Source of the DNA: a virus
DNA length: 50,702 nucleotides
Virus genome (UHGV): UHGV-0140686
Strand: one strand, 5' to 3'
The first letter of the stretch is position 1; the number at the start of each line of letters is the position of its first letter. Below, piece after piece: positions 15,001-18,000 of the stretch. Made by a program: the position numbers.

Positions 15001-18000
15001 GGCTGGTGGATATTGACGGCGTTACGTTCCGAATTGTTGATATCGGGATGCGCATGCTGCAACCGCATGAGCTCTATCGCGCGCAGGGCTTCCCTGAGTG
15101 GTACATCATCGACCGGGACTACCGCGGCGTGAAGTATTCGAAGGACAAGCAGGTTGCGCGCTGCGGAAACGCCGTGCCGCCGCCGTTCGCTGAGGCGCTG
15201 GTTAGGGCCAATCTGCCAGAAATGTGCGTTAACAAACAGGAGCGGGCAGCATGATGAAGTTAACTCTCAGGCAGCAGGAGGTTCTGAACCTCCTGATCGA
15301 GTACCAACGTAAGCATGGTTTCCCGCCTACCACCTACGAACTGACCGGCATGTTGGGGTGCCGGTCCCCCAATGCGGCGGCAACCCACCTCAAGGCGCTG
15401 GAGAGAAAAGGGGCCATCAAGATTACCCGCGGGGTTTCCCGCGGTATCAGCATCACCACTTCGCTTTTAACCAGGGAGGTTTCAGTTAACCTCAACAGCA
15501 TCGTAAAGGTGAAGTTGAATGATATCTCCCTGAGGTTTATGCAGGCCCAACACGATGAAAATCGAGCTCGTGCGCCAGGAATATTTGGTGAATTTGAGCC
15601 GCCGGCGACTGACGAAAATGGCTATTCGTCAATGACCCTATGGAGCCTCATGTCAGAGCTGGGGCAACTCTGCTATTGCGGTGGCGACTTGCCTTTCGAA
15701 CTTAAAATGGTACTGGAGGAGTGATGAAATTTTTACTTCCTTTTCCGCCCAGCGTGAATGCCTATTGGCGATCCCCAAATAAGGGGCCCGCAAAAGGCAA
15801 GCTTCTTGTCAGTGCGGCAGGCCGCAAGTTTAAGCATGCGGTGCGGGCAGCGGTCATTGAGCAATTGCGAGATATACCAAAGCCTTCATCGGCACCAGCA
15901 GCTGTAGAAATTATTCTTTACCCGCCGGATTACCGCCGGCGAGACCTGGATAATTACAACAAGGCCCTGCTCGATGCTTTGACCTATGCCGGGATCTGGG
16001 AGGACGACAGCCAGGTAAAACGCATGGCTATAGAGTGGGGCGAGAATGTTAAAGGAGGGCGGGTAGAAATCACTATATCGGCTTATAGAAAAGCGCTGGA
16101 TGTTTGTTCAGTGGTAGGTTGAAGTCTATGCAACTTAGCATTAATCTCAAGGTGTGCAAACGAAACGGGCGTGCAGGCCCTTCGTTACATAAAAATGTAT
16201 GGAGAAAGCTATGACTAACCACGTCATGGGTGCTGCTGCATCCAATAATCACTCTTTTTTTGTCATTGATGGAATTTCTGTTCGTCGTGATGTCCTTGGT
16301 CGCTATTGCCTAAATGATCTCCATCGTGTGTCCGGTTCCCTTGACCGCCACAAGCCAGCATTCTGGCTGCGCAACGAACAAACTGCGCAATTGATAGGCG
16401 AGTTGCAAAATAGCAACTCGGATATATCAGAACCTGTAAGTGTCATCCGTGGAGGCAATGAGCAAGGCACATATGTTTGCCGTGAGTTGGTGTATGCCTA
16501 CGCGATGTGGATCAGCGCTGTTTTTAATCTGAAGGTCATCAGAACGTTTGACGCGCTGCACACTGCCGGCGCTGCAACCGTCAATGCCGATCGCATCCAG
16601 GCTGGTGTGATCCTTCTGGAGTCAGCAGCCAAAATGCTCAATCTCTCCAATTCGTCAAAGCTCGGGGCATATCAGAAGCTTCAGCTGGTGGCCGGGTTGC
16701 CTGATATAATGCCCTCTTATGCCATTGATGCGCCAGCTGGCGCGCAGGACGGTTCAAGCAGGCCAACACTTTCTCTCAGCGCTTTACTTAAAGCTAATAA
16801 CATCAGAATGACCGCGAACCAGGCTTATCACATTATGGCAGGCCACGGCATAGTCGAGCAGAAGGAGCGCCGCAGCCGAACGGGTATCAATGGAGTAAAA
16901 AGATTCTGGTCTGTTACGGCAAGAGGTTGCCTGTATGGGAAAAACATCACCAGCCCGGCAAATCCACGTGAGATGCAGCCGCACTTCTTCGAATCGAAGT
17001 TTCCTGAGCTTTTGAAGCTACTTGGCATTGCCACGCAATAAGGGGATGAAAATGAGAATGACTCCCCCGCACCTGCAACCTGTTCTTTCCCGGGTTAAGC
17101 GTTTTGTTGAAAGGCAACCCGAGGGCGCCACGCTAACCCATCTGACACACAAAGTGGCGGCGTACAGTGGCCTCAATCGTAAAGACAAAGAGACCCTGAT
17201 CGAAATTATCCGGGAAAGCGGGATGCTCTGCGTAATCGATGATGGAAGGTCTACAACCTTGCACCACCCGAAATATGGTCACAACTCTGTGGCGCCCGTT
17301 ATGACACCTCCTCAGCCGACGATGGAATGCAAAATGAATAAACAGCTCGAAGTAACTCCGGAAGCATTGCGTAAACAGGCTGACGCCTTGATCAAAGCGG
17401 CAGAGGAAGCGGAGAAAAAAGCCGGGGATCGTGCAGAAATTAAGAAGCAGCTCGATCCCTTGAAGTTGGAAATTCTCCAGGCGTATGGGATGGCCAGCAG
17501 GAAGTTTGACGAGTTCGTCGATGCTATGGCTGATGTTGGAAAGGCCGTGCAGAAGCTTAAAGATCTCACTGTTTAGGGGGTATTGTGCGAGCGCTACTAA
17601 CTCCGGAAATAGTGTCACGTCTTGGCGTTGTGCTGTTTAAGCCTGGCCGCGAACTCATGCCTCTTTTTGCTGGTGGTCGCGTGTTGATAGAAAGTCAGCC
17701 TGAAAAGATGAAAACTATTCCAACGGGCCGGATCCCTGATGTACGTCAGCCCCTTGCAGAGCTTGATATTCTTCGCTTTTTCATGAGGGATGAAAGGGTC
17801 ATTAATGCTGCTGGTGGCATTAACGCGCTTGAGGCGTGGCTGAAGCATAACGTTAAACAATGCCAATACCCGCATTCACATTACCATCACCATGAATTCG
17901 TCACTATGCGCCATCCTCCGGGCGCATTAGTTGTTTGCTGGCATTGCGATAATGAATTACGTGAACAAACGACAGAGACGCTCTCCGAGCTGGCCTACCA

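What the first reader, a model, noticed from the sequence alone, without database searches (positions are those of the whole stretch)
15251..15724. LexA DNA-binding domain without the autocleavage domain
The N-terminal 70 aa closely parallel the LexA winged-helix DBD, but the C-terminal half has none of the S24 Ser/Lys peptidase motifs seen in the cI gene of this same prophage. A non-cleavable LexA-DBD protein could occupy SOS boxes or phage operators regardless of RecA activation.
Basis: partly seen in the sequence, partly recalled or inferred. Interest (0 to 1): 0.6.

Follow-up and report, generated by a model that had tools for sequence, protein, structure and literature searches.

The report
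Prophage LexA-domain fusion, no protease
A lambdoid (Klebsiella-type) prophage gene joins a copy of the DNA-binding head of the SOS repressor LexA to a small, widespread phage domain of unknown function instead of LexA's self-cleaving half. It therefore probably binds DNA without responding to DNA damage; the kind of protein is known, but this family is uncharacterised and wrongly named in databases.

Summary
ORF 15251-15724 (+, 157 aa) has a genuine LexA winged-helix domain at aa 1-65 (Pfam E 3.5e-20) that aligns without gaps to E. coli LexA 2-68 at 54% identity. It has no S24 peptidase domain, no Ala-Gly cleavage site and no Ser/Lys dyad.

The fusion occurs in four diverged lineages of Enterobacteriaceae prophages, always in the slot DNA methyltransferase, this gene, rusA. 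In other phages that slot holds a LexA-domain-only protein (SfV orf42) or the C-domain alone. Both halves are under purifying selection (dN/dS ~0.09).

Two of LexA's five DNA-contact residues are changed (E44A, E45T) and differ between lineages, so binding to canonical SOS boxes is doubtful.

Most likely it is a RecA-insensitive, delayed-early DNA-binding regulator, with phage GIL01 gp6 as the characterised precedent. The C-domain's role is unknown. This is a new variant of a known kind, of moderate interest.

The parts
15251..15724 (+). Whole ORF, 157 aa plus stop codon: a chimera of a LexA DNA-binding domain and a phage C-domain
   Evidence: ORF list. The exact protein is in public databases as DAT42148.1. 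dN/dS is ~0.09 in both halves against the Klebsiella orthologue in L006.
15238..15254 (+). AGGAG ribosome-binding site (15238-15242) and the ATGA overlap between this gene's start (15251) and the stop codon of the upstream C5-methyltransferase gene (15252-15254)
   Evidence: Read directly from the sequence. Indicates translational coupling within an operon.
15251..15460 (+). aa 1-70: LexA-type winged helix-turn-helix domain (three helices and a two-strand wing)
   Evidence: Pfam PF01726 E 3.5e-20. PDB LexA E 4e-16, gapless alignment. The AlphaFold model has helices 6-22, 28-35 and 40-52 and strands 56-58 and 66-68, pLDDT 81-88.
15365..15406 (+). aa 39-52: recognition helix SPNAAATHLKALER. It keeps LexA S39, N41 and A42 but has A44 and T45 where LexA has E44 and E45.
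   Evidence: contact residues as listed in PMC3091678. Variation between lineages is shown.
15461..15487 (+). aa 71-79: interdomain linker (TSLLTREVS), with no Ala-Gly cleavage site
   Evidence: pLDDT drops to 59-65 here. Alignment with LexA.
15488..15721 (+). aa 80-157: autonomous alpha/beta phage domain (phrog_5792 type) of unknown function. Conserved residues are N80, N82, K88, H101, D121, G124, Y125, G138, G144, P148 and F149.
   Evidence: Occurs standalone in other phages. 918 clusters at 90% identity and 509 at 50%. AlphaFold pLDDT 94.9. No PDB relative. Conservation table.
13167..15254 (+). Context: upstream C5 cytosine DNA methyltransferase gene (695 aa). The Dam-family gene at 12224-13174 lies before it.
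   Evidence: Pfam PF00145 and PF05869.
15721..16122 (+). Context: downstream rusA (Holliday-junction resolvase) gene. Its start (GTG 15721 or ATG 15724) overlaps the stop codon of the ORF.
   Evidence: Pfam PF05866. The same overlap is seen in all orthologous loci.

Best explanation
The gene encodes a two-domain chimeric phage protein.

Shown:
- The N-terminal 70 aa are a LexA-derived winged-helix DNA-binding domain, far closer to gammaproteobacterial LexA (54% identity) than to the Bacillus phage homologue gp6 (29%).
- The C-terminal 78 aa are an unrelated, independently folding phage domain.
- There is no S24 peptidase domain and no cleavage site.
- The gene is embedded, with overlapping start and stop codons, in the rightward nin operon between DNA methyltransferase genes and rusA, upstream of the Q antiterminator gene.
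- Both halves are under purifying selection.

Inferred:
- It is made only after prophage derepression or on infection, as a delayed-early product.
- It binds a palindromic DNA site through the LexA-type domain, independently of RecA.
- That site has probably diverged from the canonical SOS box (CTGT-N8-ACAG) and is specific to each phage lineage, because recognition-helix positions 44 and 45 are replaced and vary between lineages.
- The C-domain is a payload module for partner binding or assembly, not a protease. In other phages the same domain works alone or is attached to coiled coils.

Net function proposed: a damage-insensitive transcriptional regulator of lytic development, working like GIL01 gp6, the truncated LexA homologue that activates a late promoter.
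For: - Domain assignment.
- Two independent domains joined by a flexible linker, pTM 0.48.
- C-domain autonomy and spread.
- Not S24.
- Conserved slot of methyltransferase (four unrelated families: PF05869, PF02086, PF05063, PF00145), this gene, rusA, KilA-N or Ant, DUF968, Q in Klebsiella, Citrobacter/Salmonella, Cronobacter/Franconibacter and metagenomic prophages.
- In SfV and mEp460 the same slot holds a 108-aa LexA-domain-only protein (57% identical over aa 1-72).
- In IMG/VR contigs L145-L149 and L152 the slot holds the C-domain alone.
- dN/dS 0.085 (N-terminal half) and 0.092 (C-terminal half).
- No + strand promoter-like site between 11500 and 16400.
- Recognition-helix variation between lineages.
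- Precedent: GIL01 gp6, a truncated LexA DNA-binding domain, binds its own palindrome and activates promoter P3 (PMC6182141). It is homologous to the window protein's DNA-binding domain at E 7e-7.
- Elsewhere the C-domain is fused to coiled-coil-like extensions (coiled-coil Pfam hints for P0165 only; the rest judged by eye), Lar, or a second copy of itself.
Against: - No DNA target was found. No recurring palindrome is shared by the window and phage Kp4866-6, and nothing stands out among short inverted repeats in the early region.
- Lambdoid phages with Q antitermination have no obvious need for an extra late activator.
- LexA dimerises through the S24 half (PMC3091678), which this protein lacks, and an isolated LexA DNA-binding domain binds DNA weakly (own knowledge). 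Whether the C-domain dimerises is unknown.
- The C-domain family is mildly acidic (median pI 5.7) and occurs in strictly lytic phages without any DNA-binding partner. Its own activity, not DNA binding, may therefore be the point of the protein.
- Expression timing is inferred from gene position only.
Confidence: 0.45

Rival explanations
1. Uncleavable SOS-box mimic. During lytic growth after induction, when host LexA has been cleaved, the protein re-occupies CTGT-N8-ACAG boxes. It thereby shuts the host SOS regulon down again, including LexA-controlled antirepressors of competing prophages and SOS-induced toxins or defences.
For: - 54% identity to LexA's DNA-binding domain, with S39, N41, A42 and the wing motif SRGI retained.
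- No cleavage machinery.
- Two relatives (Citrobacter P0126 and SfV orf42) keep E45.
- Conceptual precedent for a phage manipulating LexA control to dominate a co-resident prophage: GIL01 gp7 (PMC9700832).
- A perfect CTGT-N8-ACAG lies in this prophage's own cI-cro region at 9498-9513.
Against: - E44 and E45, two of the five contact residues, are A and T here. They are GD, HL or AE in other lineages, although all the hosts are expected to share the same LexA box (own knowledge).
- The SOS-like box in the cI-cro region is a by-product of two adjacent ACAG-N6-CTGT cI operators. It is absent from 8 other loci that carry the fusion.
- SOS-like boxes in the window are not enriched over shuffles: 22 observed against 15.2 +/- 3.9 expected.
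- Dimerisation, which LexA needs for tight binding, is unproven.
Confidence: 0.2
2. DNA-tethered payload. The C-domain is the active part, for example a host-takeover or anti-defence/anti-restriction module, or a binder of a conserved host factor. The LexA-type domain only localises or concentrates it on DNA.
For: - The C-domain is found alone in hundreds of phages, lytic ones included (Bacillus SBSphiJ and Grass, E. coli Bas81, Vibrio, Pantoea, Pseudomonas PaBG), among small accessory early genes.
- Its neighbours include Tad2-like and Lar genes. One homologue is fused to Lar.
- DNA methyltransferases are the commonest Pfam family among its immediate neighbours, 7 of 104.
- The family is mildly acidic.
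Against: - No match to PADLOC or to any solved anti-defence protein.
- No conserved partner gene.
- The methyltransferase and Lar associations come from few, partly related loci.
- Few invariant polar residues.
- The LexA-domain-only version fills the same slot without it.
Confidence: 0.2
3. Accessory factor of the neighbouring recombination function. The product is translationally coupled to RusA and modulates or targets Holliday-junction resolution or replication-fork processing.
For: In every enterobacterial locus examined, the gene directly upstream of and overlapping rusA is one of three things: the LexA-domain protein, the fusion, or the standalone C-domain. In PdC23 the C-domain lies one small gene upstream of rusA.
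Against: Most phages with the C-domain have no adjacent rusA: only 7 of the 48 other loci searched. Overlapping genes are the rule in nin operons, so adjacency may only reflect a recombination hot-spot slot. No known RusA partner resembles either domain.
Confidence: 0.1
4. The C-terminal half is a divergent but functional S24 peptidase, or the gene is a decaying lexA fragment.
For: A superficial G-x-S-(S)-M string (GYSSM, aa 124-128) resembles LexA's G-M-S119-M motif in a MAFFT alignment.
Against: - hhalign probability 0.1%.
- No S24 match in Pfam.
- Serine at position 126 is present in only 64% of family members, and there is no conserved lysine partner.
- dN/dS ~0.09 excludes decay.
Confidence: 0.02

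Closest known systems
Host SOS repressor LexA (E. coli LexA; PDB 1LEA, 1JHH, 3JSO; TIGR00498)
   Same: [quoted passage not shown] The SPNAA start of the recognition helix, HLKAL..KG and the wing motif SRGI are conserved.
   Different: - No S24 peptidase/dimerisation domain, no Ala84-Gly85 site and no Ser119/Lys156.
- E44A and E45T in the recognition helix.
- Phage-encoded in a nin operon rather than an autoregulated host gene.
- Scores 64 bits against the equivalog cut-off of 110.95.
GIL01/Bam35 gp6, a truncated LexA homologue of Bacillus tectiviruses (PMC6182141)
   Same: Phage-encoded early protein built on a LexA DNA-binding domain without the cleavable half, homologous at E 7e-7. gp6 residue K38, needed for DNA binding, aligns with N41 of LexA and of the window protein. 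It is the only experimentally characterised precedent found in the paper searches.
   Different: gp6 is 65-66 aa and consists of the DNA-binding domain only, 29% identical, so it is probably an independent capture from a Gram-positive lexA. It activates the late promoter P3 in a phage that lacks Q antitermination. The window protein carries an extra 78-aa domain and sits in a lambdoid phage that has Q.
LexA-domain-only nin-region proteins of enterobacterial lambdoid phages (SfV orf42, mEp460 gp46, Stx-phage 'LexA-like' genes; phrog_362)
   Same: Positional orthologues in the same slot between a DNA methyltransferase gene and rusA, with 57% identity over aa 1-72. Uncharacterised.
   Different: They are 108 aa, ending in a 36-aa tail (acidic stretch, then basic) in place of the C-domain. 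The recognition helix has V44 and E45.
Standalone C-domain proteins (phrog_5792; Pantoea phage PdC23 gp56, E. coli phage Bas81_0038, Vibrio phage PS10B.1 p0060, C-terminus of the Bacillus phage SBSphiJ/Grass 166-aa protein)
   Same: 35-41% identical to aa 76-157, with the same predicted fold (BFVD TM 0.91-0.92 for the two best matches, the second being Bacillus phage Grass U5PUJ8).
   Different: No DNA-binding domain. Found in lytic and temperate phages of Proteobacteria and Firmicutes. Function unknown. Some are mislabelled 'SOS regulatory protein LexA' by annotation transfer from the fusion.
Lambda-cI-type S24 repressors (this prophage's cI, 8803-9435)
   Same: Phage DNA-binding regulators.
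   Different: cI has an HTH_3 domain plus Peptidase_S24 and is cleavable. The target has a LexA winged helix plus a non-peptidase domain.

Membership tests
LexA SOS repressor (TIGR00498 equivalog) | N-terminal LexA-type winged helix-turn-helix (PF01726) | tested here: met
   E 3.5e-20 over the full-length profile. Gapless alignment to LexA 2-68.
LexA SOS repressor (TIGR00498 equivalog) | C-terminal S24 peptidase/dimerisation domain with the Ser119/Lys156 dyad | tested here: not met
LexA SOS repressor (TIGR00498 equivalog) | Ala84-Gly85 self-cleavage site in the linker | tested here: not met
   The linker is TSLLTREVS, with nothing aligned to LexA's VAAGEP.
LexA SOS repressor (TIGR00498 equivalog) | Whole-protein score above the curated cut-off | tested here: not met
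   64 bits against 110.95; only aa 1-76 match.
LexA SOS repressor (TIGR00498 equivalog) | The five SOS-box contact residues S39, N41, A42, E44, E45 | tested here: not met
   S39, N41 and A42 are kept; E44A and E45T are changed.
LexA SOS repressor (TIGR00498 equivalog) | Binds CTGT-N8-ACAG and represses SOS genes | not testable with these tools
   Needs EMSA, ChIP or reporter assays.
Truncated phage LexA homologues (GIL01 gp6 type) | Phage-encoded LexA DNA-binding domain lacking the cleavable C-terminal half | tested here: met
   Unlike gp6, however, it carries an additional unrelated domain.
Truncated phage LexA homologues (GIL01 gp6 type) | Binds its own palindromic site and activates a late promoter | not testable with these tools
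   No candidate site was found.
Enterobacterial nin-region LexA-domain proteins (phrog_362) | Match to the family profile, and position between a DNA methyltransferase gene and rusA | tested here: met
   phrog_362 E 5.6e-31 over aa 1-74. Synteny.
phrog_5792 / phrog_29443 C-domain family (function unknown) | Profile match and shared predicted fold | tested here: met
   phrog_29443 E 5.5e-64 and phrog_5792 E 1.4e-5. 44 of 45 homologues match phrog_29443 and 35 of 45 match phrog_5792. BFVD TM 0.91.
EF-hand calcium-binding proteins | Canonical 12-residue Ca-binding loop (D-x-D-x-D-G...E) | tested here: not met

The most novel reading that the evidence does not exclude
The C-terminal module is a new phage effector fold: an inhibitor or binder of a universally conserved host or defence component, used alone by hundreds of lytic and temperate phages. 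Enterobacterial prophages have welded it to a stolen LexA DNA-binding head. The result would be a RecA-proof protein that sits on SOS-type or phage-specific operators and delivers that activity there. It could, for example, re-silence the SOS regulon or competing LexA-controlled prophages and defences during lytic growth.
Probability: 0.15. Interest if true: 0.7.

Novelty: new variant of a known kind. Interest (0 to 1): 0.4.

Why it matters
First, it corrects a widespread annotation error. Numerous Klebsiella, Raoultella, Citrobacter, Salmonella and Cronobacter prophage proteins are labelled 'SOS-response repressor and protease LexA' although they have no protease. The label has even spread to standalone proteins that contain no LexA sequence at all.

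Second, it defines an uncharacterised small phage domain with at least 500 clusters at 50% identity, a confident predicted fold and no solved relative. That domain is a clean target for structural and functional work.

Third, together with the LexA-domain-only proteins of SfV and Stx-type phages, it shows that enterobacterial lambdoid phages commonly carry RecA-insensitive LexA-derived DNA binders in their delayed-early operon. If these touch the SOS regulon or Stx/prophage induction circuits, they would affect induction dynamics, competition between prophages and antibiotic-triggered phage release in clinically important hosts.

Tried and rejected
- **Divergent S24 peptidase:** rejected.
- **EF-hand:** a weak calmodulin resemblance (E 0.029), rejected because the loop ligand positions are not conserved and no fold match supports it.
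- **SOS boxes:**
  - CTGT-N8-ACAG with up to one mismatch is not enriched in the window (22 observed against 15.2 expected).
  - The perfect box at 9498-9513 is made by neighbouring cI operator halves.
  - It has no counterpart in 8 other loci that carry the fusion gene.
- **Operator hunting:** short inverted repeats in 9400-20500 and exact palindromes shared between the window, phage Kp4866-6 and L006 gave nothing usable.
- **Conserved partner gene of the standalone C-domain:** none found by all-against-all BLASTP of neighbours.
- **Scan of genome contigs with the fusion alignment:** swamped by host lexA genes, so uninformative.
  - The afdb50 fold library was unavailable.
  - The first word-based protein search with the C-domain alone found only 6 relatives; the profile search was needed.
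  - The profile of 149 sequences was too diverse for the search for related loci.
- **Literature:**
  - No paper on the enterobacterial LexA-domain-only genes or on phrog_5792, phrog_29443 or phrog_362.
  - The paper on the LexA-DNA complex structure is not held.
- **The 5' hairpin at 15275-15295:** not conserved in L006, so judged incidental.
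Full report
**1. The observation**

The window holds a lambdoid prophage. Its early-right region runs as follows:

| Gene | Coordinates |
|---|---|
| cI (HTH_3 plus Peptidase_S24) | 8803-9435 (-) |
| cro | 9533-9763 |
| cII-like | 9792-10343 |
| replication gene | 10685-11596 |
| Dam-family methyltransferase | 12224-13174 |
| C5 cytosine methyltransferase (695 aa) | 13167-15254 |
| target ORF | 15251-15724 |
| rusA | 15721-16122 |
| KilA-N | 16199-17041 |
| DUF968 | 17585-18643 |
| Q antiterminator | 18644-19420 |

The target ORF encodes 157 aa. It has an AGGAG site 8 nt upstream. Its ATG overlaps the methyltransferase stop codon (ATGA), and its stop codon overlaps the rusA start.

The N-terminal domain is a real LexA domain:
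- Pfam LexA_DNA_bind covers aa 1-65 end to end (E 3.5e-20).
- The NCBIfam lexA equivalog matches only aa 1-76 and falls far below its cut-off (64 against 110.95 bits).
- Against PDB sequences, aa 2-68 align without a gap to E. coli LexA 2-68 (E 4e-16), with 54% identity.

**2. The C-terminal half is not S24**

- No Peptidase_S24 match appears at E<=1.
- The linker has no Ala-Gly site.
- A 149-sequence profile of the C-terminal domain, compared by hhalign with an alignment of LexA and six prophage cI repressors, gives 0.1% probability.
- AlphaFold models the domain with pLDDT 94.9 as beta-alpha-(long loop)-beta-alpha-beta.
- Foldseek against the PDB gives a best E of 0.47.
- A superficial GYSSM string is not a conserved serine nucleophile: the serine is present in only 64% of the family.

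**3. What the C-terminal half is**

tblastn against phage genomes splits the protein in two. Residues 1-72 hit short LexA-like genes of lambdoid phages. Residues 76-157 hit unrelated small genes:
- Pantoea phage PdC23 gp56 (82 aa)
- E. coli phage Bas81_0038 (82 aa)
- Vibrio phage genes (86-102 aa)
- the C-terminus of a 166-aa protein of Bacillus SBSphiJ/Grass phages

The family is large and uncharacterised:
- A profile search finds 918 clusters at 90% identity.
- An exhaustive phmmer search finds 509 representatives at 50% identity. Most are standalone proteins of 80-105 aa.
- It has no Pfam family and no PADLOC match.
- In PHROGs it corresponds to phrog_5792 and phrog_29443, both of unknown function.
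- BFVD structure matches are all uncharacterised phage proteins, including Pseudomonas PaBG, Agrobacterium 7-7-1 and Bacillus Mater.

Among the longer homologues examined, the domain is joined to LexA_DNA_bind in 3 of 45 and to Lar in one. One has an apparently truncated Dam fragment, one is a tandem duplicate, and several have coiled-coil-like extensions.

The family is mildly acidic (median pI 5.7). Its conserved positions are N80, N82, K88, H101, D121, G124, Y125, G138, G144, P148 and F149. No conserved partner gene accompanies the standalone form.

**4. The fusion is a conserved architecture in a conserved slot**

The exact protein is already in public databases as DAT42148.1, 'SOS regulatory protein LexA'. 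Close relatives are common in Klebsiella and Raoultella. One 158-aa variant is listed in 148 blocks of the assembly collection.

Three further lineages share the two-domain layout at only 43-49% identity:
- Citrobacter/Salmonella
- Cronobacter/Franconibacter
- a metagenomic group

In all of them the gene order is the same:
- a DNA methyltransferase, from any of four unrelated families (Dam, D12, MT-A70, C5)
- this gene
- rusA, overlapping this gene's stop codon
- KilA-N or Ant
- DUF968
- Q

In SfV and mEp460 the same slot holds a 108-aa LexA-domain-only protein, orf42, which is 57% identical over aa 1-72. In IMG/VR contigs L145-L149 and L152 the slot holds the C-domain alone, directly overlapping rusA and with no LexA sequence nearby. 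The window gene therefore looks like a chimera of two alternative occupants of one nin-region slot.

Both halves are constrained. Against the Klebsiella orthologue, dN/dS is 0.085 for the N-terminal half and 0.092 for the C-terminal half.

**5. DNA specificity**

The LexA residues that contact the SOS box are S39, N41, A42, E44 and E45 (PMC3091678). The window protein keeps the first three but has A44 and T45. The other lineages have AE, GD or HL at these positions, and orf42 has VE. The hosts' LexA is expected to be conserved at these positions; this rests on my own knowledge, since only E. coli LexA and one other solved LexA chain (8S7G) were seen here.

I read this variation as drift or diversification of specificity, not conservation of SOS-box recognition.

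The only perfect CTGT-N8-ACAG in an intergenic position (9498-9513) arises from two adjacent ACAG-N6-CTGT cI operators. It has no counterpart in eight other loci that carry the fusion. I could not identify a candidate operator.

**6. Expression**

No sigma-70-like site lies on the + strand between 11500 and 16400, and the genes overlap. The gene is therefore most simply part of the pR delayed-early transcript, expressed after derepression. This is an inference.

**7. Mechanism**

*Best explanation (confidence 0.45).* A RecA-insensitive, delayed-early DNA-binding regulator. Its LexA-derived head recognises a lineage-specific palindrome. Its C-domain is a partner-binding or assembly module.

The characterised precedent is GIL01 gp6. 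It is a 65-aa truncated LexA homologue that binds GaCACAnnTGTGaC and activates the late promoter P3 (PMC6182141). It is homologous to the window protein's DNA-binding domain (29% identity, E 7e-7), and its essential K38 aligns with N41.

*Rivals.*
- Uncleavable SOS-box mimic (0.2). GIL01 gp7 offers a conceptual parallel: it acts with host LexA to suppress a co-resident prophage (PMC9700832).
- DNA-tethered effector, in which the C-domain is the active part (0.2). Support comes from the domain's life as a standalone gene in lytic phages and its Tad2-like, Lar and methyltransferase neighbours.
- RusA-linked accessory factor (0.1).
- Divergent S24 peptidase or a decaying gene (0.02).

**8. Comparison and novelty**

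The protein works like a truncated phage LexA homologue. It is not a member of the LexA equivalog family, because four defining features were tested and not met.

It belongs to two uncharacterised phage families: phrog_362-type LexA-domain proteins and phrog_5792-type C-domains. The combination is already in databases, where it is misnamed 'SOS-response repressor and protease LexA'. That misnomer has been transferred to standalone C-domain proteins that contain no LexA part.

I rate it a new variant of a known kind, with interest 0.4. The LexA-domain-without-protease idea has a published precedent. The orphan-fold C-domain and the three-way modular slot are new, testable details.

Noticed in passing
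window 6925-7051 (-), within 6440-7890: A tRNA-like element scores 39.8 bits against Rfam tRNA (gathering score 29). Its acceptor, D and T arms are intact, but 66 nt stand where the ~15-nt anticodon arm should be, and ARAGORN does not call it. It lies in a 1.45-kb ORF-poor stretch. Parts of that stretch (80-99% identity) occur in 1213 of 5426 complete E. coli genomes, and the 8 best-matching records show no annotated feature under the match. Unexplained.
   Followed up: partly
window 9436-9532: The cI-cro intergenic region carries three ACAG-N6-CTGT operators. The spacing between two of them creates a perfect LexA-box-like CTGTTCAAAAATACAG at 9498-9513. It is not conserved in other prophages that carry the fusion gene. 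Whether host LexA binds there was not tested.
   Followed up: partly
IMG/VR loci L145-L149 and L152 (for example L146:3268-4635): The gene order is Dam or C5 methyltransferase, a 50-aa ORF, a standalone 91-aa C-domain, then rusA (overlapping). This is the same nin slot as the fusion gene but without any LexA domain.
   Followed up: yes
L002:3992-4240 (PdC23 gp56); L004:2977-3285 (Vibrio phage 230E39-1 P0070); protein clusters: Transitive misannotation. Standalone C-domain proteins with no LexA sequence are named 'SOS regulatory protein' or 'SOS-response repressor and protease LexA', and the fusion proteins are named as proteases although they lack S24.
   Followed up: yes
window 13167-15254 and 12224-13174: Two DNA methyltransferase genes lie in tandem. 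One is an unusually long (695 aa) C5 enzyme whose Pfam match is split into two stretches; the best covers aa 6-122. The other is a 316-aa Dam-family enzyme with a ~100-aa C-terminal extension. Across related prophages this slot is filled by four unrelated methyltransferase families.
   Followed up: partly
window 21532-21607 and 22545-22731: A tRNA-Thr (anticodon TGT) and a match to the sRNA family STnc100 (72 bits) lie downstream of the Q region.
   Followed up: no
window 11023-11083: A 30-nt inverted repeat (83% complementary, 1 nt between the arms) lies inside the replication gene 10685-11596. It is probably the phage origin.
   Followed up: no
window 15275-15295: A perfect 10-nt hairpin (CAGGAGGTTC t GAACCTCCTG) lies 25 nt into the target ORF. 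It is present in phage Kp4866-6 but not in the Klebsiella orthologue L006, so it is probably incidental.
   Followed up: yes
L011:62-316 and 2413-2667: In a Bas81-like contig the standalone C-domain gene lies within 4 kb of a Tad2-like gene (anti-Thoeris family) and a Lar restriction-alleviation gene. This looks like an accessory or anti-defence gene neighbourhood.
   Followed up: no
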